Shown piece by piece: positions 1 through 62,715 of a stretch of DNA of 64,000 bases. A program made the position numbers and the translations under genes. Each line of letters begins with the position of its first letter. The first letter of the stretch is position 1. This DNA comes from Patescibacteria group bacterium (GTDB taxonomy: Bacteria > Patescibacteriota > Minisyncoccia > Minisyncoccales > UBA5738): assembly GCA_022710775.1 (NCBI GenBank), contig JAKLGH010000001.1, positions 69,824-133,823 on the forward strand, given 5' to 3'. The notes under the pieces are model-generated. The model searched no databases. It was not told the DNA's origin and was given only the letters and a program-made list of their open reading frames with translations.

Positions 1-1248
1 ATTTTCCCGGCAATGACAAGCCGTCAAGTATACCCTTCCTCAAAACCGTGTCGCGTGCCGCTCTCGCCGCCTTCCTGGCCTTATGGGACAAGATGCATTT
101 TTCCACTATCACCCGGGCATCGCTGGGATTCCTTTCCAGAAAATCCGCCATAGCGTCGGCGACAACCGCTTCCACCGCGCTCTTAGCTTCAGGATTGCCT
201 AGCTTGCCTTTAGTCTGGCCTTCAAACTGCGGTTCATGGATTTTAATTGAAACAACCGAGGTCAACCCTTCGCGAATATCTTCACCCGTCAGATTATCGT
301 CGGTGTTTTTCAGGAAATTATTCTTCCTAACGTAATCGTTAAAAACGCGCGTAATGGCCGAACGGAATCCGGTAAGATGTGTTCCGCCCTCCATCGTTAT
401 GATATTATTGGCAAAGCTTTGCTCAAAACATTCAAATTCGTCAGTATAACGGAAGGCCGCCTCAACCACGATATCGTTCTTTTCGCCGGAACAGTAAAAA
501 ATATTCGGATGAATTGAATTGCGGCCGCGCGTAAGATATTTTATATACGAGTAAAGGCCCCCCTCGAAATAAAAAGAATAGGTCTGCCTGGGTTCCTCCA
601 CTTCGTTGGAAATATTTATCCGAATACCTTTAGTCAAATAAGCCTGCTGGCGCAAATGTCCAATAATCCGCTTGGTATCGTATTTAATTTCATGGAAAAT
701 CTCGGGATCGGCTTCAAAAATCACTTTCGTACCCAGCTTATTGCATTTGTCAACTTTCTTAACAGCCGCCTGCGGCTTGCCTTTTTTGTATTCCTGCACA
801 TACATCCCGCCGTCTCGGCAAACCTCCGCGCGCATCCAGGTCGACAAAGCGCAAACAACCGAAACTCCCACGCCGTGCAATCCGCCGCTCACTTGATAAG
901 CCTTGCCGCCAAACTTGGCGCCGGCATGCAAAGTAGTCATTACGGTCTCAAGCGCGGATTTTTTAGTCTGGGAATGAATGTCAACCGGTATGCCGCGTCC
1001 GTCATCGGCAACGCTGATCCTATTTTGCGGCAAAATTCCGATATCAATAATTTTGCAATGCCCGCCCATTGCTTCATCAAGCGAGTTGTCGACGCATTCC
1101 CAGATCAAATGATGCAAACCGTCAACGCCGGTTGACCCGATATACATACCCGGCCGTTTGCGAACCGGATCCAGGCCTTCCAGGACATAAATATCCTTAG
1201 CCCCGTATGAGGTTTCTTTTTTTTGGGTTTTTTCTTTTTCGTTAGCCA
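1..1248 (-). CDS. gyrB: DNA gyrase subunit B, N-terminal ~416 codons (3' end runs off the left edge of the window)
   Basis: Minus-strand frame is open from ATG 1248..1246 to position 1. It is absent from the ORF track because no stop lies in the window. Translation begins MANEKEKTQKKETSYGAKDIYVLEGLDPVRKRPGMYIGSTG..LHHLIWECVDNSLDEAMGGHC. Further on it reads GGLHGVGVSVVCALS and FEGQTKGKLGN, the GHKL ATPase/transducer motifs of GyrB. Confidence 0.95.
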
Positions 1249-1345
1249 TGGTGTTGATTAAGCTTGGCCAAAGCGATTCTGCTCTGTCCAATCGATTGAG
1301 CGGTACTGGATTTTACCTTTTGCGCGTCAAAAAGTTTAAAAAATA

Positions 1346-1538
1346 GAATTTATATTTTGCATTGGTATTTCGCCTCCCGGGGTACGAACCCCCGGCGGTG
1401 ACCGAAGGAAATCCCGAAGCATTGAGGGGCGACCAGAGGATGTTTCCTCCGGACTCCTCATTTCTGCGCGCTTTTTGCGGGCAGGAAGCCTAAGGCTTCA
1501 TTTTGTTCCCAAGACTTGCCCGGGGTTTATAAATTAAT
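1346..1538 (-). repeat. GC-rich structured intergenic element, copy A (long form), proximal to the gyrB start
   Basis: Near-identical to 1656..1849 and 23847..24040. Starts (plus strand) with the A/T box GAATTTATATTTT followed by ATTTCGCCTCCCGGGGTACGAACCCCCGG and ends CCCGGGGTTTATAAATTAAT. Orientation is given relative to the downstream minus-strand gene. Boundaries +/-5 nt. Confidence 0.9.
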
Positions 1539-1655
1539 CAAAACCTAAACCAAGAAAAACATAATTAATATGTTTTCTTGAACGCACCGCTGTCCAAGAT
1601 CTGTAAAAATCCTCTTTGATTGATTTTAGCTCAAAATCAAAAACAAGTAAATATC

Positions 1656-1849
1656 GAATTTATATTTTTCTATCGGTATTTCGCCTCCCGGGGTACGAAC
1701 CCCCGGCGGTGACCGAAGGAAATCCCGAAGCATTGAGGGGCGACCAGAGGATGTTTCCTCCGGACTCCTCATTTCTGCGCGCTTTTTGCGGGCAGGAAGC
1801 CTAAGGCTTCATTTTGTTCCCAGGACTTGCCCGGGGTCTACAAATTAAT
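1656..1849 (-). repeat. GC-rich structured intergenic element, copy B (long form), in tandem with copy A
   Basis: Essentially identical to copy C (23847..24040) over ~190 nt. Separated from copy A by a 117-nt AT-rich spacer containing two AT hairpins (about 1551..1580 and 1617..1641). Confidence 0.9.
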
Positions 1850-1961
1850 TAAATATGCCGGCCAAGCGACTCTGCCAAGTTAAAAATGCTTGTGCCAGGT
1901 CTTGTCAGAAGGCTTGAAAACAAAAAAACGCCACTTGCGCCAATTATTACTAATGCTTATG

Positions 1962-2033
1962 AGCCGACGGAGGGATTTGAACCCACGACCTACTGTTTAC
2001 AAAACAGTTGCTCTGCCACTGAGCTACGTCGGC
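1962..2033 (-). tRNA. tRNA-Thr (anticodon UGU), no encoded CCA
   Basis: Reverse complement is GCCGACGTAGCTCAGTGGCAGAGCAACTGTTTTGTAAACAGTAGGTCGTGGGTTCAAATCCCTCCGTCGGCT. It has a 7-bp acceptor stem (GCCGACG/CGTCGGC), a D arm GCTC/GAGC, and an anticodon stem ACTGT/ACAGT with loop TTTGTAA (anticodon TGT). The T loop is GGTTCAAATCC with one U-U mismatch in the T stem. Confidence 0.85.
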
Positions 2034-9267: not shown

Positions 9268-11646
9268 TTATAAATTATTTTCCAACTTCGCAAGCTTCAT
9301 GATCGTTTTAATCACAGAATCGGGATTCAACGACATGGACTCAATCCCCTCATCCATGATGAATTGGGCAAAATCAGCATAATCGCTGGGCGCTTGTCCG
9401 CAAATACCGCAGTATTTTCCCCGCGCCTTGCATTTGGCGATGACGGCCCTAATCAGCGATTTCACCGCTTCATTACGCTCATCTCCGATCTTGGCAATTA
9501 GCGAAGAATCGCGGTCCAGTCCAAGCGTTAGCTGCGTCAGATCGTTAGATCCTATCGACATACCGTCGAAAATATCCAAAAATTGATCGGCGAGAACGAC
9601 ATTGGACGGAATTTCGCACATCACCATCACTTTAAGATCATCTGCTCCCTGCATGAGGCCATTTTCCTTCATCACCGCCAAAACTTTCCGCCCCTCTTCC
9701 ACGGTCCGGCAAAAAGGGATCATAGTCCAGATATTGCGCAAACCGAATTCCTCGCGAACTTTCCGTATCGCTGAGCACTCCATGGCAAAGGCCGGAGCAA
9801 ACTCCGGATCGTAATATCGCGACGCGCCGCGCCATCCGATCATCGGATTCGATTCGTTCGGTTCGTAAGCTTCACCGCCCAATAATGATCTGTATTCGTT
9901 GGTCTTAAAATCGGAGAATCTGACAATCACCGGTTTGGGCCAGAAAGCCGCGCCAATCTGCGCCACTCCTTGGGCAAGCTTTGAAACAAAAAATTCCTTT
10001 TTGTCTTTGTATCCGACCGTGATCTCGTCGATCTTTTTCTTCAAAACCGGATCTTTTAACTCGTCAAAATGGTATAACGCAAGCGGATGAACCTTCACTT
10101 TATCCGCGAAGATAAATTCCACGCGCGCCAACCCGACTCCGTCGTTCGGCAAAAAAGAAGATTTGAAAGCGCCATCAGGCGTACCGACATTCAGCATGAT
10201 CTTTACCGGAAGCTTCGGCATTTTCAAAAGGTCGTAGCGTTTAACCTCGTAATCAATCTTTCCCGAAAAAACCCGGCCATTGAGGCCCTGGGTGCAGTCA
10301 ACCGTAATTTCCTGGCCGGTCTTTAAAGATCTGGTTCCGTTTTTAGAACCGACGATACAAGGAATACCCAGCTCCCGCGAAATGATGGCGGCATGGCAGG
10401 TTTTCGACCCTTCGTCAGTAATAATGGCGGCCGCCAGGCGCATGATCGGCGTCCAATCAGGATCGGTCATCTTGGTCACGAGAATCTCTCCTTGCTTAAA
10501 TTCTCTGATCCGCGAAACATCGAGAATTACTCTGGCTTTTCCCTGTCCTATCTTATTGCCAACCGATATGCCCGTAATCACAGGATCCTCTACGCTCCTG
10601 ATATTGTATTCTTCATAAATCTGTCCGATATTGGTGGAATAGATCGTCTCCGGCCGCGCCTGCACGATAAAAAGTTCTCCGGTCTTGCCGTCTTTTGCCC
10701 ACTCGATGTCCTGCGGCGCGCCATAATGCTCTTCGATCAAAGCCGCCCAATTAGCCAATTGCAGCACTTCATCATCGGTAATCGAGTATTCCAGCTGGTC
10801 TTTTTTAGCTACCGGAACTTCTTTTAGGCCGTTTCCGGCGCCGTAAACATATTTTTTGTCCTTACGGCCAAGATTCCTGATTATTATCGGCCGCTTCCCT
10901 TCTTTTAAGGTAGGTTTAAACACATAAAACTGGTCGCTGGTAATTCGGCCCTTAACGATCAGCTCTCCGATCCCGTAGATTGATGAAATCGAAACAACAT
11001 TGCGGAATCCGGTCTCGGTATCGATTGTAAACATTATGCCCGAAGACGCCAGATCCGACCGCACCATTTTCATCACTCCTACCGACAAAGCCACTTTCAT
11101 ATGGTTAAAACCTTTTTCTTCGCGATAAACTATCGCCCGTTCCAAAAACAAAGAAGAAACGCATTTCTTTACCGCCGCCAAAACTCCCGCCGGCCCGGTC
11201 ACATTAAGGTATGTTTCGTGCTGGCCGGCGAACGATGCGTCCGCCAGGTCCTCGGCCGTCGCCGATGACCTGACCGCCACATCCACGTTTTTCGTGCCGT
11301 AAGCATTGGAGAGCGCGGCGTAGCTATCCAAAATGGCCGTTCTTAAATCGGCGGGAAATTTCCCCCCCATAACCAGATCTCGGGCTTTACGCGAAACCGA
11401 CTTAAGCGAATTAAGATTTTTGTGGTCCAGTTTGGAAAAAACCTGTTCCAATTTATCAATAAGGCCGTTGTGTTCCAGGTAATACCAGTAGGCATCGGAT
11501 GTAAAAATGAATCCATTCGGCACTTTGACGCCGCGCGGGGTCAGTTGGGAATACATCTCCCCCAGCGACCCGTTCTTTCCGCCAACCAGAGGAATATCTT
11601 TTTTCGTCACCTGGTCAAACCAAACAATATTTTGTTTTTGCTCCAT
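9268..11646 (-). CDS. ppsA: phosphoenolpyruvate synthase (pyruvate, water dikinase)
   Basis: 792 aa. N-terminal ATP-grasp region VWFDQVTKKDIPLVGGKNGSLGEMY. Phosphohistidine swivel TDEGSKTCHAAIISRELGIPCIVG. The C-terminal PEP-binding barrel reads GMSIGSNDLTQLTLGLDRDS. Confidence 0.95.
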   Translation of the reverse strand: MEQKQNIVWFDQVTKKDIPLVGGKNGSLGEMYSQLTPRGVKVPNGFIFTSDAYWYYLEHNGLIDKLEQVFSKLDHKNLNSLKSVSRKARDLVMGGKFPADLRTAILDSYAALSNAYGTKNVDVAVRSSATAEDLADASFAGQHETYLNVTGPAGVLAAVKKCVSSLFLERAIVYREEKGFNHMKVALSVGVMKMVRSDLASSGIMFTIDTETGFRNVVSISSIYGIGELIVKGRITSDQFYVFKPTLKEGKRPIIIRNLGRKDKKYVYGAGNGLKEVPVAKKDQLEYSITDDEVLQLANWAALIEEHYGAPQDIEWAKDGKTGELFIVQARPETIYSTNIGQIYEEYNIRSVEDPVITGISVGNKIGQGKARVILDVSRIREFKQGEILVTKMTDPDWTPIMRLAAAIITDEGSKTCHAAIISRELGIPCIVGSKNGTRSLKTGQEITVDCTQGLNGRVFSGKIDYEVKRYDLLKMPKLPVKIMLNVGTPDGAFKSSFLPNDGVGLARVEFIFADKVKVHPLALYHFDELKDPVLKKKIDEITVGYKDKKEFFVSKLAQGVAQIGAAFWPKPVIVRFSDFKTNEYRSLLGGEAYEPNESNPMIGWRGASRYYDPEFAPAFAMECSAIRKVREEFGLRNIWTMIPFCRTVEEGRKVLAVMKENGLMQGADDLKVMVMCEIPSNVVLADQFLDIFDGMSIGSNDLTQLTLGLDRDSSLIAKIGDERNEAVKSLIRAVIAKCKARGKYCGICGQAPSDYADFAQFIMDEGIESMSLNPDSVIKTIMKLAKLENNL

Positions 11647-20121: not shown

Positions 20122-23100
20122 TTAAATCGGTTCATTATACGGACTCTGCGGGGTTTTTGATTGCGATTTCGGTTGCGCCGCCGTTTGTTTTTCTTCGACT
20201 GCTTTCAGCCGCTGGACCTTAACCGGATCATTTGAACCCACTACCAGCACCTTCCACAAAAACGGGTCAATCTCAATAATATCGTAGCGTTTGATTTCCT
20301 TGGAAAGCAATGCATTGGCCACCAGATTTTCCACGTTGTTCTGAACCGCCCGCCTCATTGCCCGGCCGCCGAACGCCGGATCAAACCCCAGGTCTCCAAG
20401 CTTCTCGATCAGCTTCTGGCTGATCCTGAACTCAATATCCTTCACGGCCAAGCCTTTCTTTATATCGGCAACCATCAATTGCGCAACCTGCTTCATTTCT
20501 TCTTTATCAAGAGGCCGGTAAAGAACAACTGCGTCAAAGCGGTTTAGGAATTCCGGCTTAAACAATTCGCGCCTAAGCAAATTGTCGATGAATGTTTCCT
20601 TGAAAGCGGCATTCAGCTTGCTGCCCCGGTCCACAGCCTCCTTGATATATTCCGCTCCGGCATTCGATGTGGCAATCATAATGGTTTTTTTGAAATCAAC
20701 TTTCCGGCCCGAACCGTCAGCCATCTCGCCATCGTCAAAAATGCTCAAAAACAGGTTTAAAATATTGGGATGCGCCTTCTCGATCTCGTCGATCAAGATC
20801 AGAGACTGGGGATTCTCCATTACCTGGGTTGTGAAATATCCGGGCGAATTGAGATTGCCGATCAGCTTATCGATCGAATCCATAAGCTGGTACTCGGCCA
20901 TATTGAGCCTGATCATATTCTTCTCCGAACCAAAGTAAACCTTGGCCAGCTGCTTGGCGGTTTCGGTTTTGCCGATACCGGTCGGACCGAGGAACAGGAA
21001 ATTACCGATCGTCCGCTTGCTGGTCTTAATGTCTGCCTGTGCGCGCCTTAAGGCGTTGCAAAGTTCGCTTACCGCCTCTTTCTGGTTGATCAACCCCTGG
21101 TGGATGGTATCTTCCAAATGCATCAGGCGATCCGCTTCGGCATCCTGCTCTTTTTGGTCTCCAATGAATGTTCCTTTCTTCTTTTCGTGGTAAGTGTCTC
21201 GTTCTCCGGGAGGTATAAGTTTCCATTCCGCCGGATCAATTTCAATCACATCGCCCGCTTTAACGGTTCCGGCAAGCACGGCTGTGGCGATAATGTTTTC
21301 CACGTTGTTCTGAACAGCCCGGCGCATGGCCCGGCCGCCGAACGCCGGATCAAAACCCTCGTCGGCCAGCTTGCTGAGCAATTCCGGCGTAATGGCCAGT
21401 TCCATGTTCTTCTCGCGCAGCCCAGCGCGAATATCCTTTAACATCAGTTCGGCTACTTGCTGCATCTCTTCCTTGTTAAGAGGCCGGTAAAGCACCACCG
21501 CATCGAAACGGTTGACGAATTCCGGGCGGAAAACGTTCTTTCTTAATAAATTATCAATGAAAACATCTTTAAAATTGGTAAGCTTGGAACCGCGTTCAAC
21601 CGCCTCTCGAATGTAATCCGCGCCCGCATTGGATGTGGCAATGATAATAGAGTGGCGGAAATCAACTTTCCGGCCCGAACCGTCCACCAGCTCTCCGTCA
21701 TCCAGAATACTCAAAAAAAGGTTAAGCAAATTGGGATGCGCCTTCTCGATCTCGTCGATCAGCAGCAGGCAGAACGGATTTTCCCTGATCGCCGTTGTCA
21801 GATATCCCGGCTGGGTGAGCGACCCGATAAGTTTATCGATCGATTCCAAAAGCTGGTACTCGGCCATATTAAGCCTGATCATATTTTTGTCGGAACCGAA
21901 ATAAACCTTGGCCAGCTGCTTGGCAGTTTCGGTCTTGCCGACGCCCGAAGGCCCCAAGAACAGGAAGTTGCCGATAGTACGCTTTCGTTTTTTTAAATCC
22001 GCCCGGGCGCGCCGCATGGCGTTAGCCAATTCCGAAACCGCTTCTTTCTGGTTGATCAATCCTTGGTGTATCAGATTTTCCATGTTGAGCAGCGTTTCCT
22101 TTTCTTTCTGCGCCGCTGATCCGGCCGGCACCTCGTATTTAGCCGAAAAGAACAGATCGATCTCTTCGGGCAAGATCACGCCTCTAGCCTTGGTAGAACG
22201 GGTCCGTTCGTAAACCATCACGTCATCGAGCAAATCTACGGCCTTCTTGGGAAAAGAAATATCGCCGATGAAATAATCACAGAGCTTGATGATCTCCTGA
22301 AGGCTCAATAAAGGCGCGAAGACGCCGGTCCGAGATTCCCGCCAGACAACCTCTTCCTCCAAAATATGAAGCGTTTCATCAAGACTCGGGCTGGGAACCT
22401 CGATCTTGGCAAAATTACTCGCTACATCCCGATTGGTCTCAATGGATTTATGGTATCCGTCGAAAGAGGTGATTCCGATCAGCCGGAAACCCGGCGTCGT
22501 CAAATACTGGGAAAGAATCCCCGTTATATCAATCTTGGCTACCGCTTCGGCCCCGAAAGATTCACCGACGTAATTATGCATCTGCGGTATGACCAGAATG
22601 ACGTTCTGCGCTTTGATCGCCTCGTTAAAAACTTTTTTTAACCTCACTTCCAACATGCGCTTATCCCCCGCGCTGCCGATCAGAGACGGCATATCAATCT
22701 CTAAAATCCTCATGTACGACAGCTCGCGGAAGCTCATATTCTTCAAGATCTTCTTTGCAAAATTGAAAAGCACGCTTTTCCGTCCGGAACCAACCTCTCC
22801 AACCAAAAGCAGGCAATTGCTATTTTGTTTGATCAAGGTTTCCTCGATATCCTTCACCTGTTTTTCGTGAAGAACAACTCGGCTCCAAAACAAGGGATTG
22901 CGGACCGAAAGATCGCGAGAATACTGGTTTAGGGTCAGGGTATAGCCGCCGACAAGCTCCTGAACCGGGCTCGTCTGGAAGTATAGGCATAAATTCTCCC
23001 GCTCCCAGTATCTGCTCTTTTTCTCTCTGTCAACTCCCAGATTATACATCCACAGCACCGTCTCGATCACATCGTTTCTGACAATTTCCAGCGAATCGAG

Positions 23101-23796
23101 CTCCTTATGAAAAAACGGCTCTTCTTCGAGCAAACTTAACAATAAAGCATAAATATTGATTTTCGGAAAACCGTTATCAACGGCGACCTGCCGCGCGCGC
23201 GACAGCACCGCCTCAATCGCCCTGGTATTATCCTCCTGCAAGATCACAGCTTCCTCGCGGGATCGGGCTTGGGGCTGGGTTTTAGCGTAAGCCAGAAGAT
23301 CTTGCTCGAAGTCTGATTTTTTAATGTAAAGCCGGTTAAAAATAAACAGCAAGCGGCTGCCTTTCAAAAGCATGGATAAAAGCATTAATTTAAAAGGCAA
23401 AGCGCTTTTAGCCAAAGTTGCTTTGATCAACTGGGCCGCCTCGAAATCAAGATAATTCAGCAGGTTTTCCCGCTCGCTCATATTCTCATGAAGAAGCGGC
23501 CCCACCTTCTTCAATTTTTTCTCGACAAAACCAATAACAAGCCAGGAAGAACCCCAAAAGAAAAAAGATAAATAAACCACGGCTAGCAAAAGGTCGCTAG
23601 TAATCTTAGGCAAGGTGATTTTAGCCAGAATCGACGGTAAAAACGCTTTAATAGCTTCCAGTCCGCCAAACATCAACAAAGACAAAATCAACAACACATA
23701 CGCCAAAGGCTTGACGGTTTTAAAAACCCGCAACGGGATCAATTTGGCGTAATCAACCATTTTGAAAGTAAATGCGGATTTTTGATTGAATGCCAT
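20122..23796 (-). CDS. membrane-anchored Clp/Hsp100-family AAA+ ATPase with a degenerate D1 and two tandem D2 modules
   Basis: 1224 aa. Residues ~27-95 are hydrophobic (TM). Clp_N-like repeats are present (ALLLSLLEEEP). In D1 the Walker A is degenerate (GEVGSGRKS) and Walker B is replaced (VILVIPQMH). Two D2 modules of ~287 aa follow (residues ~575-861 and ~897-1184). Each has GPxGxGKTE, LLIDEIEKAHP, SNAG and GGRAMRR motifs. They are offset by exactly 322 aa (966 nt). Confidence 0.85.
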   Translation of the reverse strand: MAFNQKSAFTFKMVDYAKLIPLRVFKTVKPLAYVLLILSLLMFGGLEAIKAFLPSILAKITLPKITSDLLLAVVYLSFFFWGSSWLVIGFVEKKLKKVGPLLHENMSERENLLNYLDFEAAQLIKATLAKSALPFKLMLLSMLLKGSRLLFIFNRLYIKKSDFEQDLLAYAKTQPQARSREEAVILQEDNTRAIEAVLSRARQVAVDNGFPKINIYALLLSLLEEEPFFHKELDSLEIVRNDVIETVLWMYNLGVDREKKSRYWERENLCLYFQTSPVQELVGGYTLTLNQYSRDLSVRNPLFWSRVVLHEKQVKDIEETLIKQNSNCLLLVGEVGSGRKSVLFNFAKKILKNMSFRELSYMRILEIDMPSLIGSAGDKRMLEVRLKKVFNEAIKAQNVILVIPQMHNYVGESFGAEAVAKIDITGILSQYLTTPGFRLIGITSFDGYHKSIETNRDVASNFAKIEVPSPSLDETLHILEEEVVWRESRTGVFAPLLSLQEIIKLCDYFIGDISFPKKAVDLLDDVMVYERTRSTKARGVILPEEIDLFFSAKYEVPAGSAAQKEKETLLNMENLIHQGLINQKEAVSELANAMRRARADLKKRKRTIGNFLFLGPSGVGKTETAKQLAKVYFGSDKNMIRLNMAEYQLLESIDKLIGSLTQPGYLTTAIRENPFCLLLIDEIEKAHPNLLNLFLSILDDGELVDGSGRKVDFRHSIIIATSNAGADYIREAVERGSKLTNFKDVFIDNLLRKNVFRPEFVNRFDAVVLYRPLNKEEMQQVAELMLKDIRAGLREKNMELAITPELLSKLADEGFDPAFGGRAMRRAVQNNVENIIATAVLAGTVKAGDVIEIDPAEWKLIPPGERDTYHEKKKGTFIGDQKEQDAEADRLMHLEDTIHQGLINQKEAVSELCNALRRAQADIKTSKRTIGNFLFLGPTGIGKTETAKQLAKVYFGSEKNMIRLNMAEYQLMDSIDKLIGNLNSPGYFTTQVMENPQSLILIDEIEKAHPNILNLFLSIFDDGEMADGSGRKVDFKKTIMIATSNAGAEYIKEAVDRGSKLNAAFKETFIDNLLRRELFKPEFLNRFDAVVLYRPLDKEEMKQVAQLMVADIKKGLAVKDIEFRISQKLIEKLGDLGFDPAFGGRAMRRAVQNNVENLVANALLSKEIKRYDIIEIDPFLWKVLVVGSNDPVKVQRLKAVEEKQTAAQPKSQSKTPQSPYNEPI

Positions 23797-23846
23797 GTGG
23801 TTAAAATATTAAATCTGCCGCAACGGGTTCGCCTCGTTTTAGAATC

Positions 23847-24040
23847 GAATATATATTTTTCTATCGGTATTTCGCCTCCCGGGGTACGAACCCCCGGCGG
23901 TGACCGAAGGAAATCCCGAAGCATTGAGGGGCGACCAGAGGATGTTTCCTCCGGACTCCTCATTTCTGCGCGCTTTTTGCGGGCAGGAAGCCTAAGGCTT
24001 CATTTTGTTCCCAGGACTTGCCCGGGGTCTACAAATTAAT
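23847..24040 (-). repeat. GC-rich structured intergenic element, copy C (long form), 5' of the Hsp100-like gene
   Basis: Essentially identical to copy B. It begins 10 nt after the stop of the upstream (minus-strand) gene at 24051. It ends ~50 nt before the ATG at 23796. Confidence 0.9.
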
Positions 24041-24050
24041 AAATTATCGC

Positions 24051-25946: not shown

Positions 25947-26034
25947 CTTTTTAAGATGCCTGATAAATATCGTTGCCTTTACTATTAGGACGATATGGGA
26001 TTATTAAATGCCGAATCTAAATTTTTCAATTTAA

Positions 26035-28487: not shown

Positions 28488-29726
28488 TTACTTTTTGAGA
28501 TCTTCTTCGATCTTGGCTAAACGATTGTATTTAGCCAGCCTTTCTCCTCTGGCCGGAGCGCCGGTTTTAATGTAATCAGCCCCGATGCCGCAGGCGAAAT
28601 CGGCTATGAAATCGTCGTTTGTCTCGCCGGATCGGTGGGAAACCATGATTTTCCAGCCGTAACTTCTCGCCAGCGCCGAGGCTTCCAGCGATTCGGATAC
28701 CGTCCCGATCTGGTTAATCTTTAAAATCATCGCGTTACAAGCGTCTTTTTCCTTGGCAATTTTCATCATTTTGGAATTAGTAACCAGCAAATCATCGCCG
28801 ATCACGATGACCTCCGGCTTAAAAGCCGACCATGACGGATAATCCGCTTCGGCGAACGGGTCTTCTATGCCTTCGATCGGGTATTTGGCGATCAGCTGTT
28901 TGTAGTAATCGCCCAACGCCGCGCCGGAAAAATTTCCTATCTTCATTTGATAGGAGTTATCTTTATAAAATTGTGTTGCGGCTACATCCAGAATGATCTT
29001 GATTTGATCCGTGTATCCGCGATTGGCTGCAGCCTCCATGACCAAGCTCAAGGCTTCATCCGCATCCGATATCGACGGCGCGAACCCCCCCTCATCGCCC
29101 AGATTTCCGGAAAGACGGCCGTACTTTTTTACCAGCAATGACTTTAATTCGTGATAGATCTCGGAAGCCATCCGCAAATTTTCTTGAAAACTCCCGCTTT
29201 GGGGAACCAGCATAAATTCCTGAACGTCCAGATCGTTTCCGGCATGCGCGCCACCGTTAATGATATTGAAACCGGCCTTGGGCACTTTGATAGCAGGATT
29301 CTTCGCCAAACCGGCGACATAATAATAAAGCGGCTGGTTTGAGGCCACGGCGGCGGCGCGCGCCACCGCCAGCGATACGCCGCATGTCGCGTTGGCGCCG
29401 AGCCTTCCCTTATTTTCGGTGCCATCGAGCTTTATCATCAAATCATCGATCTCTTTTTGGTTTTTAGCGTCTTTGCCGACAAGCGAAGGCGCAATAATTT
29501 CGTTTACGTTCTTCACGGCTTGCAATACGCCTTTACCATGATAGCGCTCTCCGCCGTCGCGCAATTCGACCGCTTCATTGGTGCCGGTGGACGCTCCCGA
29601 AGGAACGGCAGCCGAAACCCAAATCCCTTCGGTTTCGATCAACACCTCGACAGTCGGATTTCCGCGGGAATCGAGGATTTCCCGGGCTTTTATTTTCTTG
29701 ATTTTAGTCGGACGATTTAGGAACAT
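28488..29726 (-). CDS. eno: enolase
   Basis: [18 protein letters not shown].., [15 protein letters not shown], and the tail [32 protein letters not shown]. The ATG at 29726 ([20 protein letters not shown]) is preferred over the track start at 29780, which overlaps trxB. Confidence 0.95.
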
Positions 29727-30684
29727 TTTTTTTGGCGGAACGGACCGGCTTGGCTTTGGGCGCCGCCGCCAATCCTCCATCCCGGAAATGCTCCGAAATC
29801 GAAAGGACGGCTTTTGCGCCTTCGCCGCAAGCGATCACGATCTGTTTATATTTTATCGAACTTACATCCCCGGCCGCGAACAAACCCGGAGTTTTGGTCT
29901 GGAAGGTGTTGGCATCGTATTTGATCTCGCCGGCTTCGTTCAGCTCGGCCAACATTCCGGCGATCAATGATGCTGGTTTATAGCCAATCTTGACAAACAC
30001 TCCTTCAGCGTCAATCGTGCTTTCCGTTCCGCTTTTCTGATCCAAATACTGAATCCCGGTAACAAATTTATTGCCCAAGATCCGCAAAACTTTAGCATTG
30101 GCAATAACCACTATCTTTTTTGTCGCTTTCGCCTGATCCTGGATCTCGGCTGAGGCTCTTACCCGGTCGGAAGCTTCCAGAATATAGATCTTGGCCGCGA
30201 ACCTCGACAAAAAAAGCGCCGATTCAAAAGCCGAATTTCCGCCGCCCACAACCGCGACCGTGCGGGAAGCAAAAAGCGGGCCGTCGCAAGTGGCGCAATA
30301 GCCAACCCCGCGGCCGATGAATTCCTTTTCCCCCGGAACGCCTAAAAATCTCGGATCGGCACCCGTGGCCAGTAAAACCGCTTTTGATTCATATCGGTTT
30401 TTTTCGGTCTCAACCGAAAAACCTGTTCTCTTCTTGGAAATTTTTACGACATTCTCCATTTCTATACCTACGTCCAGCGATCTGGCATGGTCGCGGAATT
30501 TAGCGATCAAATCCTGGGCTGAAATCCTGCCCATGCCCGGAAAGTTATCGATCTCGACTTCTTTTCTGGCCATTTGTCCGCCGAATTCCCGCGTCAGCAG
30601 CAAAGTGTCCAATTTTTCCCGCTTAGCATAAATAGCCGCCGTCATTCCGGCTGGCCCGCCTCCGATAATGATAAGGTCGCGCAT
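29704..30684 (-). CDS. trxB: thioredoxin-disulfide reductase (low-Mr type) with a basic C-terminal extension
   Basis: DLIIIGGGPAGMTAAIYA (FAD site), the redox-active CATC in GVGYCATCDGPLF, VVGGGNSAFE (NADPH site), and FAAGDV. The ATG at 30684 (MRDLIIIGGG) is preferred, because the track N-terminal extension to 30795 is translated through repeat copy D. Confidence 0.9.
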   Translation of the reverse strand: MRDLIIIGGGPAGMTAAIYAKREKLDTLLLTREFGGQMARKEVEIDNFPGMGRISAQDLIAKFRDHARSLDVGIEMENVVKISKKRTGFSVETEKNRYESKAVLLATGADPRFLGVPGEKEFIGRGVGYCATCDGPLFASRTVAVVGGGNSAFESALFLSRFAAKIYILEASDRVRASAEIQDQAKATKKIVVIANAKVLRILGNKFVTGIQYLDQKSGTESTIDAEGVFVKIGYKPASLIAGMLAELNEAGEIKYDANTFQTKTPGLFAAGDVSSIKYKQIVIACGEGAKAVLSISEHFRDGGLAAAPKAKPVRSAKKNVPKSSD

Positions 30685-30687
30685 ATT

Positions 30688-30803
30688 GAATTTATATTTT
30701 TCATAGGAATTTCGCCTCCCGGGGTAAGAACCCTGGGGCGGCGACCAAAGGATGTTTCCTTTGGAATCCTCATTAATTTGTTCCCCGGAGTCCACAAATT
30801 AAT
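30688..30803 (-). repeat. GC-rich structured intergenic element, copy D (short deletion variant), 5' of trxB
   Basis: Shares both ends and the core with the long copies: GAATTTATATTTTTCATAGGAATTTCGCCTCCCGGGGTA..GATGTTTCCT..CACAAATTAAT. It lacks three internal segments. It fills the whole gap between the nnrD-like stop (30803) and the trxB ATG (30684). Confidence 0.85.
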
Positions 30804-31714
30804 TAATATTTAATTTTAGGGATAATCTGGGCGATTTCATCGATCAAATCGGTCGCGCACATAGACTCGCCGTGTTTGGCGCCCGCAATCTCTCCGGCCG
30901 CCCCGTTGATATAAGCAGCCGCAATGCCAACCGTAAACGGATCGACTCCTCGCGCCATCAGCGCTCCGGCAATTCCCGCCAAAGTATCTCCCAAGCCGCC
31001 CTTGGTCATCAAAGCGTTGCCGGTATGTCCAAGCATCGTCCGTTTTCCATCCGAAAGAATGTCTACCTTGCCTTTCAGGACAATCGTGGTTTGCAGGCGA
31101 GCCGCTTCGTTAAGCACCAGCTCCGTTTTTTGCTCCAAGGTCAAACCGTCGGTTTTTTTACCCGTTAAGACAAAAAATTCGTAGGCATGCGGAGTAAGCA
31201 GGATCGATTTCCCGATAATGACCGGCAGGTTTCCCTCCAGGGCATAAATTCCCTCGGCATCTACGACCGTCGGCACGTTCACTTGCGACAGATACGCTGC
31301 CACCGCTTCCTTTGTTTCCGGCGACCGGCTGATCCCGCCTCCGATCAGCACAGCGCATTTTCCGCGCGAAACCGCTTCCAAAACATTGGTTTCCTCGATC
31401 AGCGTGTCTACGTGCCTTTTTTCAATGATCATGCCGTCAAGGGGAACCGTTGAAAGATTGGGAGAATATCCCGCAATGGCATCGCTGGCGCGCTGGGGAG
31501 CGATCACGCGCACCATATCGCAACCGGCGCGCATGGCTGCCATCGCCGAAAGGTAAGACGCCCCGCAATAATGATGCGAACCTCCGATCACCAGCAAATA
31601 CCCATAATCGTATTTCCGGCTATCAGGATCCCTTTTTTGGTAAATATCCTTAAGCAGCGATTTGTAACGCGCGTTTGCGTTTTTTTCCGCTCTTTTGTTG
31701 TTTTTTTTATTCAT
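30803..31714 (-). CDS. nnrD: NAD(P)H-hydrate dehydratase (YjeF C-terminal / carbohydrate-kinase family)
   Basis: KYDYGYLLVIGGSHHYCGASYLSAMAAMRAGCDMVRV and TKGGLGDTLAGIAGALMA are signatures of the YjeF_C domain. Confidence 0.85.
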   Translation of the reverse strand: MNKKNNKRAEKNANARYKSLLKDIYQKRDPDSRKYDYGYLLVIGGSHHYCGASYLSAMAAMRAGCDMVRVIAPQRASDAIAGYSPNLSTVPLDGMIIEKRHVDTLIEETNVLEAVSRGKCAVLIGGGISRSPETKEAVAAYLSQVNVPTVVDAEGIYALEGNLPVIIGKSILLTPHAYEFFVLTGKKTDGLTLEQKTELVLNEAARLQTTIVLKGKVDILSDGKRTMLGHTGNALMTKGGLGDTLAGIAGALMARGVDPFTVGIAAAYINGAAGEIAGAKHGESMCATDLIDEIAQIIPKIKY

Positions 31715-59809: not shown

Positions 59810-59880
59810 CAGAGACCGGGACTCTGCTGGCTTCTGGTCTCTGTTGGCTTTTTGGGTGGCGTAATTTTGGAGCAGAATAA

Positions 59881-60721
59881 ATCTACAAAAGTAGAAATTG
59901 AATATGCCTATTAGAGTTGTTAAGTGATAGGTATAACAAGTAATCTACAAAAGTAGAAATTGAATATGCCTATTAGAGAAAGAAGAACTAAAAAGATTAC
60001 AATATCTACAAAAGTAGAAATTGAATATGCCTATTAGAGTTTTAGTGCTATTGATGGTTTTTCTATCTACAAAAGTAGAAATTGAATATGCCTATTAGAG
60101 TTTTTAATTCTTTTAAGATGTCTTCATCTACAAAAGTAGAAATTGAATATGCCTATTAGAGAACAGACAAATCGCCAATATTATCTTATCTACAAAAGTA
60201 GAAATTGAATATGCCTATTAGAGTTTACCGGAATCAGGACCCCTCGTTTATCTACAAAAGTAGAAATTGAATATGCCTATTAGAGTGCCAAGAGTCCGGG
60301 CAATCATCTGATCTACAAAAGTAGAAATTGAATATGCCTATTAGAGTTAAAAATTTTTTGAAATATCAGTACAATCTACAAAAGTAGAAATTGAATATGC
60401 CTATTAGAGAAACTGGCGCTCGGAATTCTATGAGATCTACAAAAGTAGAAATTGAATATGCCTATTAGAGTCCCATAAAGGCAATCGGCTGTCGTATATC
60501 TACAAAAGTAGAAATTGAATATGCCTATTAGAGCTTTCGTTAGATGATCAATACTATCAATATCTACAAAAGTAGAAATTGAATATGCCTATTAGAGACC
60601 GCCTTGTCATAAAAACATACGTTATCTACAAAAGTAGAAATTGAATATGCCTATTAGAGTCGCCTACTTGCTATGGCTGATATACATCTACAAAAGTAGA
60701 AATTGAATATGCCTATTAGAG
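59881..60721 (-). CRISPR. CRISPR array: 14 identical 36-nt repeats and 13 spacers of 25-28 nt, Cas12a-type repeat
   Basis: Plus-strand repeat is ATCTACAAAAGTAGAAATTGAATATGCCTATTAGAG. Repeat starts are 59881, 59943, 60004, 60065, 60126, 60188, 60250, 60311, 60374, 60435, 60498, 60562, 60624, 60686. The reverse complement CTCTAATAGGCATATTCAATTTCTACTTTTGTAGAT ends in the Cas12a handle, so transcription runs on the minus strand, as for the cas genes. Confidence 0.97.
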
Positions 60722-60852
60722 AGCTGATCGGATCGTAATTAGCTTTAAAGATGCGATTATTGAATAAAATTCAGATAACGACTTTAAGCTAATTACGACC
60801 GAAAAAAGCATAAAGACTAAGGTTTTTTCTAATAGATACATGGCAATTTCCA
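60722..60852 (-). promoter_or_regulatory. CRISPR leader (between cas2 and the first repeat), AT-rich with a long inverted repeat
   Basis: A 131-nt AT-rich region adjacent to the cas2-proximal repeat. The inverted repeat TCGTAATTAGCTTTAAAG (60733..60750) / ACTTTAAGCTAATTACGA (60781..60798) flanks a 30-nt AT-rich loop. Confidence 0.5.
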
Positions 60853-61164
60853 CTAATTTGCTACTTTTTGATTTGGTATTAAATTGCCAAAGAACAGAAA
60901 GTCTTTCTCTTCATTTTCCGCATATCCGTACCGCTTTAATTTTCCCTTACAACCTTCGCATACGGTGATTATAATAATGCTGTCTCTTTTTGTAAAGATT
61001 GGCTTGTATTTCATATCTATCTCTTTCAGCAAATTTGCCAAAAACCGGGAACTGTTTTTAACTTCATAAACCGAATATTGCAACCGCCGTCCGTATTTTT
61101 TTAAAAACTTGGAAAATTTGCTTCTGGTTTTATTATCTTCAAAATCATAAGAAACTATAAACAT
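60853..61164 (-). CDS. cas2: CRISPR-associated endoribonuclease Cas2
   Basis: MFIVSYDFEDNKTRSKFSKFLKKYGRRLQYSVYEV is the Cas2 N-terminal beta-alpha motif with the conserved Asp. 103 aa, adjacent to cas1 and the array. Confidence 0.9.
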   Translation of the reverse strand: MFIVSYDFEDNKTRSKFSKFLKKYGRRLQYSVYEVKNSSRFLANLLKEIDMKYKPIFTKRDSIIIITVCEGCKGKLKRYGYAENEEKDFLFFGNLIPNQKVAN

Positions 61165-61196
61165 TTTAAGTTAATCCGCCGCAGACCGAACATTAT

Positions 61197-62171
61197 TTAA
61201 CCGTGGCTCGCTTGTTTTTTTTGCTTCAAAGAAAACTTCGGAAAATCCGAACCGTTCATCACGCAATAATAAAAATCCCGAACATAACAATAAATTTCTT
61301 CCCGATGATCCAAAATCGCCTGCGCAAATATCGCCAGATACTTTTCCTGGCGATCCCAGCCTAATTCCCGCTTTCCGGCTCTTTCCTTAAAATCATCTAC
61401 ATCAATTTGCCTAAGATGATAGGCCTTAACAATCGCTTTATCGATAATACAGCGAAAAGGCTCAATCAAATCGCAAACAAGCGATTTTCTCTGAAAAAAC
61501 AGCCGGTGATAAAACCCTTTATAAGAATCGAAGCCGTATATACCAACCATGCCGTCGATAAAATTGAATAACATGGTATACCCGATATCGAGCAAAACAT
61601 TGCTTACATCGGTTTTGGCTCGCGGCAAGCGGCGTTTCCACCCCATTTCTGAAAAATATTCCTGAAAGAAAAACTTGCTTGCTGACCCTTCAAGTCCCAG
61701 CAAATCATTGCCATTTTTTGCTTCCGCCACTTTTAATTTAATATCCTTAAGGCTTGCCGGGTTTTTGGTCATCTTTTGCTCCAACAGCAATCCAACCTGA
61801 TTATCAATTTTATTCGAAACAAGCTTCTTGGCCATTTCAAGCTCAGCTGCATTATCCCAAGAATATTGCTTTTCCCGCAATAAATAATTACCTTCGGCCG
61901 TCGAGATTATCCGGGCGTAGGCTAAAAAATTTCGGTTGCATAAAAATACGGAAACACCGCATTTTTTGCAATTTCTAACCATCACGCTGGTAAGCGAACA
62001 TTCTCCAATGATAAATACACAAAAAACCTTGTGGCAAGATATCTGGTTCTCGATCTTACCGTTCTTGCATAAACAAATATTGTCATTGGCAATCTTAATT
62101 TTGTCCACATCGATATTCCCGGCGCTCACGAACAATATTTGTTTTTCCCGAAAATCAGGCAGGCTCAGCAT
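61197..62171 (-). CDS. cas1: CRISPR-associated integrase Cas1
   Basis: LGLEGSASKFFFQEYF.., NVLLDIGYTMLFNFI.., GFYHRLFFQRKSLVCDLIEPFRCIID are Cas1 catalytic-domain motifs (E, H, D/E). Confidence 0.93.
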   Translation of the reverse strand: MLSLPDFREKQILFVSAGNIDVDKIKIANDNICLCKNGKIENQISCHKVFCVFIIGECSLTSVMVRNCKKCGVSVFLCNRNFLAYARIISTAEGNYLLREKQYSWDNAAELEMAKKLVSNKIDNQVGLLLEQKMTKNPASLKDIKLKVAEAKNGNDLLGLEGSASKFFFQEYFSEMGWKRRLPRAKTDVSNVLLDIGYTMLFNFIDGMVGIYGFDSYKGFYHRLFFQRKSLVCDLIEPFRCIIDKAIVKAYHLRQIDVDDFKERAGKRELGWDRQEKYLAIFAQAILDHREEIYCYVRDFYYCVMNGSDFPKFSLKQKKQASHG

Positions 62172-62175
62172 ATAA

Positions 62176-62715
62176 TTAGTGGCAAAGCGGCTGGTAAACG
62201 CATTGCAAGCATTTATTTTCGTTAACCGGCCGCGGAATTTCGGGCCGATATTTTTTCATTTTTTCGACAAGCGACAAAAAATGGTTCATTTCTTCCTCAT
62301 CGGGGATAGCTATCTTATAACGTTTATTGTCGGCCAATGATTGAATCGCCAGTGATTTAACCTCGTAACCCATTTCCCGCAAGCAAACCATTTGCGCGTA
62401 AAGCTGGTATTTATAACCGTCAAATATCGTTTTCACTTTGTACTTCCGTTCAACAAGCAACCCGCTTTTAATATCGAAAGTATCAATCTTTCCCATAATC
62501 CCCAGCCGTTCCGAGCAAACTTCCAATCCCTGCAAAACATTCTTAGCGGTCGTATAGGTTCTGTTGTCCACCGCTTCATGCGCAAGCCGTCCAACCGTCT
62601 GCGCCGTCCGATGATAGGTTTTAACGCTAAAATCATCATATACCGAGTGCAAATAGATCGAATAAGGGCAAAAAATAAAATCATTTATCTTGGAAATCTG
62701 TATATAGTCTTCCAT
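62176..62715 (-). CDS. cas4: CRISPR-associated exonuclease Cas4 (RecB-like, 4-Cys)
   Basis: The N-terminal Cys is in INDFIFCPYSIYLH. The nuclease core reads GKIDTFD..LVERKYK. The C-terminal cluster is CLQCVYQPLC. Its ATG overlaps the effector stop (TAATG at 62713..62717). Confidence 0.9.
   Translation of the reverse strand: MEDYIQISKINDFIFCPYSIYLHSVYDDFSVKTYHRTAQTVGRLAHEAVDNRTYTTAKNVLQGLEVCSERLGIMGKIDTFDIKSGLLVERKYKVKTIFDGYKYQLYAQMVCLREMGYEVKSLAIQSLADNKRYKIAIPDEEEMNHFLSLVEKMKKYRPEIPRPVNENKCLQCVYQPLCH

What the first reader, a model, noticed from the sequence alone, without database searches (positions are those of the whole stretch)
23847..24040. The same element precedes gyrB, an Hsp100-like ATPase and thioredoxin reductase: a possible shared stress-responsive leader
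Copy C begins 10 nt after the stop of the upstream gene (24051) and ends ~50 nt before the ATG of the 1224-aa Clp/Hsp100-like gene. Copy D fills the whole nnrD-trxB gap, and copies A and B precede gyrB. The three downstream genes act in DNA topology, protein disaggregation and thiol redox, all classic stress or homeostasis functions. I infer that the element could be a common cis-regulatory leader. Options are an RNA thermometer, a ligand or alarmone sensor, or a docking platform for a protein or RNase, defining a small regulon in a genome with few regulators. B and C are almost identical at the nucleotide level. That also allows recent spread or gene conversion, as in a MITE-like element. The ends carry a weak 8-nt inverted match, AATTTATA ... 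TACAAATT. Copy B is flanked by TAAATAT on both sides, but copies A, C and D show no clear target-site duplication.
Basis: inference. Interest (0 to 1): 0.6.

Follow-up and report, generated by a model that had tools for sequence, protein, structure and literature searches.

The report
Small structured mobile repeat, not regulon
The repeated 120-200-base element in front of gyrB, the ClpB-like gene and trxB is a small, strongly folded, protein-less jumping element of Paceibacteria-type (CPR) bacteria. It is present or absent at otherwise identical sites in sister species, so it is not a conserved stress-response leader.

Summary
The window has four same-strand copies: A 1343-1541, B 1653-1852, C 23844-24043 and a short diverged D 30685-30806. 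B and C are 99% identical and A is 91% identical to B.

The regulon reading does not hold. In three sister species with the same gene order, the ClpB-like and trxB upstream spacers lack the element. Two of those species carry independent insertions in a spacer that is empty in the window. The junctions there are clean and share only 2-4 nt.

About 20 further copies turned up in related metagenome contigs. Some lie upstream of genes, some between convergent genes, and one sits inside a methyltransferase ORF.

The family shares a three-domain fold. In the model alignment 92% of cells pair, and 24 of 35 pairs show compensatory changes. It has optional extra hairpins and no terminal inverted repeats. 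A TT(T/G/A)AT motif marks the 5' junction and the 3' end reads T(C/T)NAT. No Rfam family matches.

Best reading: a non-autonomous mobile element resembling IS200/IS605 PATE elements, possibly carrying a guide-RNA-like scaffold. No transposase was found, so the mechanism is inferred.

One weak, post hoc pattern remains unexplained: proteostasis or redox genes lie downstream in 4-5 of 15 insertions.

The parts
23844..24043 (-). Copy C, the finding itself. It is a long-form element of 198 nt plus the 5' junction motif TTTAT at 24043-24039. It lies between the stop of the 129/169-aa ORF (24051) and the ATG of the 1224-aa ClpB-like gene (23796).
   Evidence: It is absent from the orthologous 60-61-nt spacer in L022 and L023.
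1653..1852 (-). Copy B, long form, 99% identical to C. Its 5' junction motif is TTAAT. It follows the tRNA-Thr terminator.
   Evidence: Assemblies break or become chimeric here (L018 and L019).
1343..1541 (-). Copy A, long form, 91% identical to B. Its 5' junction motif is TTGAT. It lies 94 nt upstream of the gyrB ATG at 1248.
30685..30806 (-). Copy D, a short form of 120 nt without the accessory hairpins. Its junction motif TTAAT overlaps the nnrD stop codon, and its 3' end ...TTCAAT abuts the trxB ATG at 30684.
   Evidence: It is absent from L021 (13-nt gap) and from L022 and L023 (91-nt unrelated spacer).
25947..26034 (.). An empty site in the window: the 88-nt spacer between the 394-aa gene and the GltS-like gene. 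Sister species L022 and L023/L024 each carry an independent family member in this spacer.
20122..23796 (-). The 1224-aa AAA+ protein with two AAA_2 plus ClpB_D2-small modules. It is the gene downstream of copy C.
29704..30684 (-). trxB, 326 aa from the ATG at 30684. The 363-aa GTG ORF used in some annotations reads through copy D.
1..1248 (-). The 5' part of gyrB, which runs off the window. It is the gene downstream of copies B and A.
1927..2033 (-). tRNA-Thr (1961-2033) and its terminator-like hairpin (1927-1941). Both lie upstream of copy B, so B is probably not co-transcribed with the tRNA.

Best explanation
The element belongs to a family of small (120-230 nt), protein-less mobile elements found in Paceibacteria-type CPR bacteria from anaerobic digesters and similar habitats.

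Shown here:
- It inserts cleanly into AT-rich sites, just 3' of a TT(T/G/A)AT motif. At most 2-4 nt are shared between the two junctions.
- Its own 3' end reads T(C/T)NAT.
- It has no terminal inverted repeats.
- One strand, the minus strand of the window, folds into three covarying hairpin domains. The first is P1 enclosing GUAGAC-P2-GAAC. The second is P3, preceded by the invariant GAGGAUUCC. The third is P4 enclosing P5, followed by CGAAAUAC...AAAAUAUAAAUUCGAU.
- Extra hairpins are tolerated at three fixed places.

Inferred: the element is moved in trans as single-stranded DNA by a Y1 (HUH) transposase, in the manner of IS200/IS605 'peel-and-paste' elements. That would make it a palindrome-associated transposable element (PATE). 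The conserved fold beyond the two end hairpins may be a guide-RNA (omega-RNA-like) scaffold used by a TnpB-type nuclease encoded elsewhere.

Its position in front of gyrB, the ClpB-like gene and trxB reflects where insertions landed and were tolerated in this lineage, not a conserved regulon. Local side effects on neighbours are possible but untested. One example is the AU-rich tail with a TATAAA box placed 6 nt before the trxB ATG.

Tiered confidence: mobile, selfish, non-autonomous repeat about 0.9; IS200/IS605-like mechanism about 0.45; omega-RNA role about 0.25. The single confidence figure given for this explanation (0.6) is for the statement as a whole.
For: Mobility:
- Gene order is conserved in sister species (TrxB 86%, 78% and 76% identical), but their spacers lack C and D.
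- The L022 and L023 spacers show two reciprocal filled and empty sites with clean junctions.
- One copy splits a class-I SAM methyltransferase ORF. PDB methyltransferases align across the junction.
- Assemblies break or become chimeric at copies.
- Several copies occur per locus in other genomes: four in 14 kb of L013 and two in L025.
- A fifth copy of the same genome lies upstream of gatB.

Structure:
- The covariance-model alignment of 17 copies has 92.2% of cells paired and 24 of 35 pairs with changes on both sides. None of 500 shuffles reached this, and slid controls gave 36-54%.
- G.U pairs outnumber A.C mismatches 28 to 9, which favours the sense strand.
- The accessory hairpins also covary between copies A-C and copy E.

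Resemblance to IS200/IS605:
- The 5' junction motif is TTDAT in 15 of 16 copies. Its middle base differs among the near-identical A, B and C, as expected of flanking DNA.
- The 3' terminal motif is TYNAT.
- There are no inverted repeats and no duplication longer than 2-4 nt.
- ISDra2 inserts 3' of TTGAT without duplication (PMC8612924).
- PATEs lacking genes and often encoding omega-RNAs are described in PMC10055086.
- The sense strand lies on the G-rich strand in 14 of 19 copies.
Against: - No transposase, TnpA or TnpB was found in the 64-kb window, in about 16 kb beyond it, or next to any copy.
- No full-length parent element was seen; left and right halves always lie together.
- The left and right hairpins are not significantly alike, although IS200/IS605 ends usually are.
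- The invariant AT at both junctions could equally be a 2-bp target duplication produced by a different transposase.
- The strand bias is only 14 of 19.
- No transcription data exist, so an RNA role is unproven.
- No Rfam omega-RNA, HEARO or IS605-orfB model matches.
- The core GAGGAUUCC...GGUCGCC is identical across quite different copies. That is more conservation than end recognition alone seems to need, and it is not explained.
Confidence: 0.6

Rival explanations
1. It is a cis-regulatory leader, such as an RNA thermometer, a ligand sensor or a protein docking site. In this reading it co-regulates a small stress regulon of gyrB, the ClpB-like ATPase and trxB.
For: All four window copies are co-oriented with a homeostasis gene and lie 0-110 nt upstream of it. 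The fold is strongly supported. In unrelated contigs, copies also precede htrA-clpB (L009) and desulfoferrodoxin (L011b). That gives 4-5 of 15 independent co-oriented insertions next to proteostasis or redox genes.
Against: - The orthologous ClpB-like and trxB upstream regions in three sister species lack the element.
- Other copies sit between convergent genes (L016, L011a, L013d), antisense to their neighbours (L014a), inside an ORF (L015), or upstream of gatB, a tRNA synthetase, GltS-like genes and DUF genes.
- No expression platform is conserved: there is no terminator and nothing that sequesters a ribosome-binding site. Shine-Dalgarno motifs are rare in this lineage anyway.
- No Rfam family matches.
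- The stress enrichment is post hoc.
Confidence: 0.07
2. It is a mobile element moved by a mechanism other than IS200/IS605. One option is a transposase or serine recombinase that duplicates or crosses over at an AT dinucleotide (IS607-like or unknown). Another is a REP/RAYT-type system acting on the GTAG-plus-hairpin module.
For: AT is invariant at both junctions. The left and right hairpins are not alike. P2 is preceded by G-U-A/G-G/A, like the GTAG of REP elements (this comparison rests on my own knowledge of REP elements). Strand bias is imperfect.
Against: The TT at positions -5 and -4 of the 5' junction is conserved well beyond a 2-bp target. REP and BIME units are 20-40-nt single palindromes, not 120-230-nt three-domain folds. 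No candidate enzyme was seen.
Confidence: 0.3
3. It is a family of trans-acting small-RNA genes that multiplied by duplication. The RNA, not its mobility, would be the selected product.
For: The fold covaries and the single-stranded blocks are invariant. Extra hairpins occur at fixed sites, as in true structured RNAs.
Against: No promoter or terminator of its own rises above chance. Insertions are clean and lineage-specific, and one lies inside an ORF. Copy number and position differ between sister species.
Confidence: 0.05

Closest known systems
PATEs: palindrome-associated transposable elements, the non-autonomous derivatives of IS200/IS605 (for example the PATE-like elements of G. stearothermophilus, PMC10055086) and their parent ISDra2 (PMC8612924)
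   Same: Both are gene-less and 100-200 nt long. Both lack inverted terminal repeats and have no, or minimal, target duplication. Both carry subterminal hairpins. Both insert 3' of a T-rich pentanucleotide: TTGAT for ISDra2 and TT(T/G/A)AT here. Both have a related motif at their own 3' end, and one structured strand. PATEs often carry an omega-RNA scaffold, which would explain the covarying fold.
   Different: No cognate TnpA or TnpB was found. The left and right hairpins are not demonstrably alike. There is no match to Rfam IS605-orfB or HEARO models. The long-range helices P1 and P4 and the invariant GAGGAUUCC block have no documented counterpart. The host is a CPR bacterium.
Classical bacterial MITEs, for example Correia elements of Neisseria (recalled from my own knowledge)
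   Same: Both are short, multi-copy, intergenic and often co-transcribed. Both can bring promoter-like boxes next to genes. Both show presence/absence polymorphism between strains.
   Different: MITEs are defined by terminal inverted repeats and a fixed target duplication (TA for Correia elements). Neither is present here.
REP/BIME elements mobilised by RAYT (TnpA_REP) (recalled from my own knowledge)
   Same: A GTAG-like tetranucleotide directly precedes a GC-rich hairpin (GUAGAC-P2). Both are extragenic, often just after stop codons.
   Different: REP units are single 20-40-nt palindromes arranged in pairs. This element is a three-domain unit of 120-230 nt with conserved single-stranded blocks. 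No RAYT was seen.
Riboswitches and RNA thermometers (cis-regulatory leaders)
   Same: Both are structured and covarying, and many copies lie just upstream of start codons.
   Different: This element is not fixed at orthologous genes, is not always in a 5' UTR or co-oriented with its neighbour, has no expression platform, and matches no Rfam family.

Membership tests
IS200/IS605-derived PATE | No terminal inverted repeats | tested here: met
   No inverted repeat of 40 nt or more in the window. Local alignment of the left half against the reverse complement of the right half gave z of at most 1.5 in 11 copies.
IS200/IS605-derived PATE | Insertion 3' of a conserved 4-5-nt target motif (TAM), with a related motif (TEM) at the element's 3' end | tested here: met
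   TT(T/G/A)AT or GTGAT lies at the 5' junction in 15 of 16 copies, and the middle base varies among the near-identical A, B and C. The 3' end reads T(C/T)NAT. Empty and filled sites confirm the junctions.
IS200/IS605-derived PATE | No target-site duplication | tested here: inconclusive
   Filled and empty sites share only 2-4 nt (TGAT, AT). This fits similarity between the target motif and the element's end, but a strict 2-bp AT duplication cannot be excluded.
IS200/IS605-derived PATE | Subterminal imperfect hairpins at both ends | tested here: met
   P2 lies 15-20 nt from the 5' end and P4/P5 about 30 nt from the 3' end. Both covary.
IS200/IS605-derived PATE | Left and right hairpins resemble each other because one TnpA binds both | tested here: not met
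   Direct similarity between the halves is not above shuffled controls (z of at most 2.3).
IS200/IS605-derived PATE | A cognate Y1 (HUH) TnpA, and TnpB if an omega-RNA is present, in the same genome, ideally bounded by the same ends | not testable with these tools
   None was found in the window, in about 16 kb beyond it, or in about 250 kb of related loci examined. Whole genomes could not be scanned.
IS200/IS605-derived PATE | Active strand on the lagging-strand template (orientation bias with replication) | tested here: inconclusive
   The sense strand is the G-rich strand in 14 of 19 copies, including all window copies. Gene orientation is a confounder.
Classical MITE | Terminal inverted repeats plus a fixed-length target-site duplication | tested here: not met
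Cis-regulatory leader (riboswitch or thermometer regulon) | Conserved at orthologous genes, in the 5' UTR, co-oriented with the regulated gene | tested here: not met
   Absent at orthologous ClpB-like and trxB loci. Some copies are convergent, antisense or intragenic.
Any described RNA family (Rfam 15) | Score at or above the family's gathering threshold | tested here: not met
   The window scan found only tRNA-Thr. Permissive scans of copy C, L007 and L011b gave nothing near threshold; the best was Hairpin-meta1 at 18.5 bits against a threshold of 40.
REP/BIME (RAYT-associated) | GTAG tetranucleotide followed by a single 20-40-nt imperfect palindrome, often in inverted pairs near a RAYT gene | tested here: inconclusive
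   GUAGAC-P2 fits the first part. The whole unit is far larger and has several domains, and no RAYT was seen.

The most novel reading that the evidence does not exclude
The conserved three-domain fold could itself be the functional product. It might be an orphan guide-RNA or omega-RNA-like scaffold for an RNA-guided nuclease or transposase of Patescibacteria that has not yet been recognised. It would be carried on a gene-less mobile unit. That unit would settle preferentially, or be preferentially retained, just upstream of proteostasis and redox genes, where its AU-rich TATAAA tail acts as a portable promoter or 5' module.
Probability: 0.12. Interest if true: 0.7.

Novelty: new member of a known kind. 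Interest (0 to 1): 0.38.

Why it matters
CPR (Patescibacteria) genomes are small and are usually thought to be poor in mobile DNA. This family reaches about five copies in 80 kb in one genome, breaks assemblies and creates chimeric contigs. It also inflates ORF calls; for example, the 363-aa 'TrxB' reads through copy D. It has been active recently enough to differ between sister species.

Recognising the family prevents it from being mistaken for a riboswitch or a regulon signal. It also gives a covariance model for masking, and points to a transposase or TnpB partner still to be found in these organisms. If the fold proves to be a guide-RNA scaffold, it would mark a compact RNA-guided system in CPR bacteria.

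Tried and rejected
- Rfam, at gathering and at permissive thresholds, on the window and on three copies: no family. The weak Hairpin-meta1 hit comes only from CCAGAGGAAACA in P3; the 29-nt loop-B strand is missing, so this is not a hairpin ribozyme.
- I looked by eye for hammerhead-like CUGAUGA...GAAA and found no match.
- I considered the resemblance of the 5' AAUUUGUAGAC to the Cas12a repeat of the same window. Other family members have CCGAGGUAGAC there, so it is coincidence.
- BLAST against phage and plasmid collections, and a pattern scan of viral contigs: nothing.
- A search of 5.8 billion proteins with six-frame translations of the element, aimed at finding a parent element or more copies: it returned only the TrxB ORF that reads through D, and one ORF that led to L025.
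- A search for left and right halves separated by an ORF: none.
- A terminal-inverted-repeat test and a test of left/right hairpin likeness: not significant.
- A closing helix P0 between the 5' flank and the 3' tail: present in L012 and L015 only, so not conserved.
- Sigma-70 promoter and terminator scans around all copies: no better than shuffles.
- A leaderless-promoter idea, with TANNNT placed 6 nt before the ATG: only 6 of 68 gene starts, which is too weak to use.
- Strain-level polymorphism at the gyrB locus: the apparent short form (L019) is an assembly chimera that joins the 5' flank of B to the 3' flank of C.
- The pattern scan of genome contigs gave only one true hit, so the window's own species is apparently not matched in that collection.

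Full report
**What is there**

The window is a housekeeping stretch of a Paceibacteria-type CPR genome. It recurs in many anaerobic-digester assemblies, including MAGs GCA_035453565.1 and GCA_035914655.1. The closest pattern hit in reference genomes is a Candidatus Paceibacterota MAG.

A repeat search finds three long copies and one short diverged copy, all in the same orientation. They are 1342-1545, 1653-1856, 23844-24047 and about 30685-30806. B and C are 99% identical, and A is 91% identical to B.

On the minus strand, which is the coding strand of nearly all genes here, the order is tRNA-Thr, a terminator-like hairpin, B, 107 nt, A, 94 nt, then gyrB. C lies between the stop of a small ORF (24051) and the ATG (23796) of a 1224-aa protein with two AAA_2/ClpB_D2-small modules. 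D fills the nnrD-trxB gap and abuts the trxB ATG.

A covariance model built later finds no other copy in the window. It does find a fifth copy, E, about 5.5 kb beyond the window start, between a DeoC-like gene and gatB.

**The family and its fold**

Rfam finds nothing at gathering or permissive thresholds.

One pattern scan of reference genomes and one of metagenome contigs gave nine loci with diverged relatives. nhmmer and the model then found more copies within those loci. There are four in 14 kb of L013, two in L014, two in L011, and two in L025.

Read on the window's minus strand, all copies share the same plan.
- A 5' TT(T/G/A)AT motif.
- Helix P1 enclosing GUAGAC, hairpin P2 and GAAC.
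- An invariant A(A)UGAGGAUUCC block.
- Hairpin P3, usually with the loop GGAAACAUCC.
- Helix P4 (UCGCC/GGCGA) enclosing a variable hairpin P5.
- A tail reading CGAAAUAC...GAAAAUAUAAAUUCGAU.

Helices change sequence but keep pairing. P1 is UUAAUUUG/CAAAUUAA in some copies, AUUCC..GG/CC..GGAAU in others, and AAAUCUGUAACU/AGUUACAGAUUU in L011b. P4 becomes UCGAU/AUCGA in L011b. P5 is entirely different between D and L007, yet still forms a hairpin.

On the model-guided alignment of 17 copies, 92.2% of cells pair and 24 of 35 pairs show changes on both sides. None of 500 shuffles reaches these values, and sliding the partners drops pairing to 36-54%. That alignment is fitted to the structure, so the numbers lean towards it, but the compensatory changes are plain in the raw sequences.

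G.U pairs outnumber A.C mismatches 28 to 9, which favours the sense strand as the folded one.

Extra hairpins sit at three fixed places.
- After P1 in copies A-C and E.
- Inside P3 in L012, L013a-c and E.
- Between P4 and P5 in A-C, E and L014b.

The two accessory hairpins of A-C carry compensatory changes in E.

**It is mobile**

*Sister species.* TrxB homologues at 86%, 78% and 76% identity led to three sister species. All keep the gene order ftsZ-nnrD-trxB-eno-...-GltS-like-129 aa-ClpB-like.
- Their nnrD-trxB gaps are 13 nt (L021) or 91 nt of unrelated AT-rich sequence (L022, L023). The window has 118 nt containing D.
- Their 129aa-ClpB-like gaps are 60-61 nt. The window has 254 nt, which equals 56 nt plus the 198-nt copy C.

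*Reciprocal insertions.* L022 and L023/L024 each carry a family member in the spacer upstream of the GltS-like gene, where the window has an empty 88-nt spacer. A pairwise alignment of that spacer shows two reciprocal, clean insertions of different subfamilies.
- L022 has a 131-nt copy after ...GGTGTGAT. The L023 site is empty and reads GGCGTGAT|TTTGGCGT.
- L023 has a copy of about 155 nt after ...TTTTAAAAAT. The L022 site is empty and reads TTTAAAATAT|TGAAAAAG.
- Only 2-4 nt (TGAT or AT) are shared between each pair of junctions.

*Insertion in a gene.* In L015 a copy sits inside a class-I SAM methyltransferase gene. The N-terminal 28 residues lie upstream of it and motif I (VLDAGCGPG) lies downstream. 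Solved methyltransferases align colinearly across the junction.

*Assembly artefacts.* Assemblers break or cross over at the copies. The contig behind L018 ends inside B. L019 joins the 5' flank of B to the 3' flank of C.

**It is not a regulon leader**

Besides the missing orthologous copies, orientation and position vary.
- Co-oriented and upstream of a gene: gyrB, the ClpB-like gene, trxB, gatB, an htrA-clpB pair, desulfoferrodoxin, a class-I tRNA synthetase, GltS-like genes (two insertions), DUF6119 and several unknowns.
- Between convergent genes: L016, L011a, L013d.
- Antisense to both neighbours: L014a.
- Intragenic: L015.

Promoter-like and terminator-like sites around the copies are no more frequent than in shuffles. 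Shine-Dalgarno motifs are rare in this lineage, so there is no obvious ribosome-binding site to sequester.

One pattern remains unexplained. Four or five of 15 independent co-oriented insertions precede proteostasis or redox genes. This count is post hoc and small. It could reflect insertion or retention bias and deserves a genome-wide test.

**What kind of mobile element**

It is not a classical MITE. Left and right halves show no significant inverted or direct similarity, and there is no consistent target duplication.

Several features resemble IS200/IS605 elements and their gene-less derivatives, PATEs.
- It inserts 3' of a T-rich pentanucleotide. ISDra2 uses TTGAT, without duplication, as single-stranded DNA on the lagging-strand template (PMC8612924).
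- A related motif lies at the element's own 3' end. This corresponds to the transposon-adjacent and transposon-encoded motifs described in PMC10055086.
- It has subterminal hairpins and one structured strand.
- The middle base of the 5' motif differs among A (G), B (A) and C (T), although these copies are 91-99% identical. This is as expected if the motif belongs to the target.
- The sense strand lies on the G-rich strand in 14 of 19 copies.
- PATEs 'often encode omega-RNAs' used in trans by TnpB. That would account for covarying helices that a transposase alone would not need.

Several points count against membership.
- The two end hairpins are not demonstrably alike.
- No TnpA or TnpB was found in the window, in its flanks, or next to any copy.
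- The invariant AT at both junctions could be a 2-bp duplication made by another enzyme.

I therefore hold 'non-autonomous mobile element' at about 0.9, 'IS200/IS605-like mechanism' at about 0.45, and 'omega-RNA scaffold' at about 0.25.

**Novelty and verdict**

I found no description of this family in Rfam, in the phage or plasmid collections, or in the literature searched.

It is a new member of a known kind: gene-less, structured mobile repeats. Its host phylum is usually considered poor in mobile DNA.

Its practical importance is for annotation. It breaks assemblies and extends ORFs, as with the 363-aa 'TrxB'. It can also be mistaken for a riboswitch.

Its wider interest depends on finding the partner enzyme and on whether the fold is transcribed as a guide-like RNA.

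Noticed in passing
window 59868-63986 (minus strand): A type V-A CRISPR-Cas locus. The array has 14 repeats of 36 nt ending ...AAUUUCUACUUUUGUAGAU. It is followed by cas2 (60853-61164), cas1 (61197-62171), cas4 (62176-62715) and the C-terminal part of cas12a (RuvC_1 plus NUC, from 62715). GC content is 0.35-0.38 against 0.47 elsewhere, which suggests acquisition by transfer. In other assemblies cas12a is called as two ORFs, 274 aa (REC1) and 1004 aa, so it may be split or frameshifted.
   Followed up: partly
window 20122-23796 (minus strand): The 'Hsp100-like' gene encodes 1224 aa. It has an internal tandem duplication of about 970 nt (20302-20914 against 21271-21880, 72-77% identical) that gives two AAA_2 plus ClpB_D2-small modules. 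Its N-terminal 580 aa or so have no Pfam match. The protein is conserved at 1189-1223 aa in sister species. It is not a canonical ClpB, which in L009 is 902 aa with Clp_N.
   Followed up: partly
L015 11044-11645: The methyltransferase gene split by a copy also carries two compensating homopolymer frameshifts, in an A-run at the junction and in a G-run after motif I. Exact removal of the 131 nt restores the reading frame of the N- and C-terminal parts but not of the 21 residues holding the SAM-binding motif. This could be a pseudogene, an assembly error or something odd.
   Followed up: partly
L022 14538-14671 and L023 14705-14841 (orthologous to window spacer 25947-26034): The same short spacer was hit independently by two different subfamilies of the element in two sister species. 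This suggests a hot spot for insertion or for retention.
   Followed up: yes
L012 about 985-1050; L013 about 10640-10705 and about 2085-2150: Three otherwise diverged copies share a nearly identical insert of about 67 nt inside P3 (CCUUGAACGGCAGCGCCGUUCCCUCCGAAUUAUCGUCGGAGCAGGUAAUCCGCAAGUAAUCUUGAAAGG; one copy differs at one base). The copies come from two different metagenomes. The module is either under strong sequence constraint or is exchanged between copies.
   Followed up: no
L009 1-4330; L011 2519-3122; window copies C and D: Proteostasis or redox genes lie directly downstream of 4-5 of 15 independent co-oriented insertions: the ClpB-like gene, trxB, htrA followed by clpB, and desulfoferrodoxin. 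This is more than I would expect by chance, but the count is post hoc and the sample is small.
   Followed up: partly
L019 (GCA_035915015.1, 1976-bp contig) and L018 (contig end): A public MAG contig joins the 5' flank of copy B to the 3' flank of copy C, which makes a false tRNA-Thr to ClpB-like junction. Another contig stops inside B. The repeat degrades assemblies of this species.
   Followed up: yes
68 called gene starts in L001, L017 and L021-L023: Shine-Dalgarno-like motifs (GGAG, GAGG, AGGA) occur within 15 nt of only about 8 of 68 start codons. The upstream regions are instead A-rich (for example aaaaaaaATG). Translation initiation in this lineage seems largely independent of Shine-Dalgarno pairing.
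   Followed up: partly
L025 9051-9205 (+) and 10960-11114 (-): Two copies in inverted orientation, 1.75 kb apart, bracket two genes of 193 aa and 370 aa. This layout could behave like a composite element.
   Followed up: no
window 1545-1653 and 1250-1343: The 3' flanks of B and A share a TTTTTGA...TAAAATC stretch, and B is followed by TTTACT-17-TAAAAT. A and B may therefore have arisen by tandem duplication of the element together with the gyrB promoter region, rather than by two separate insertions.
   Followed up: no
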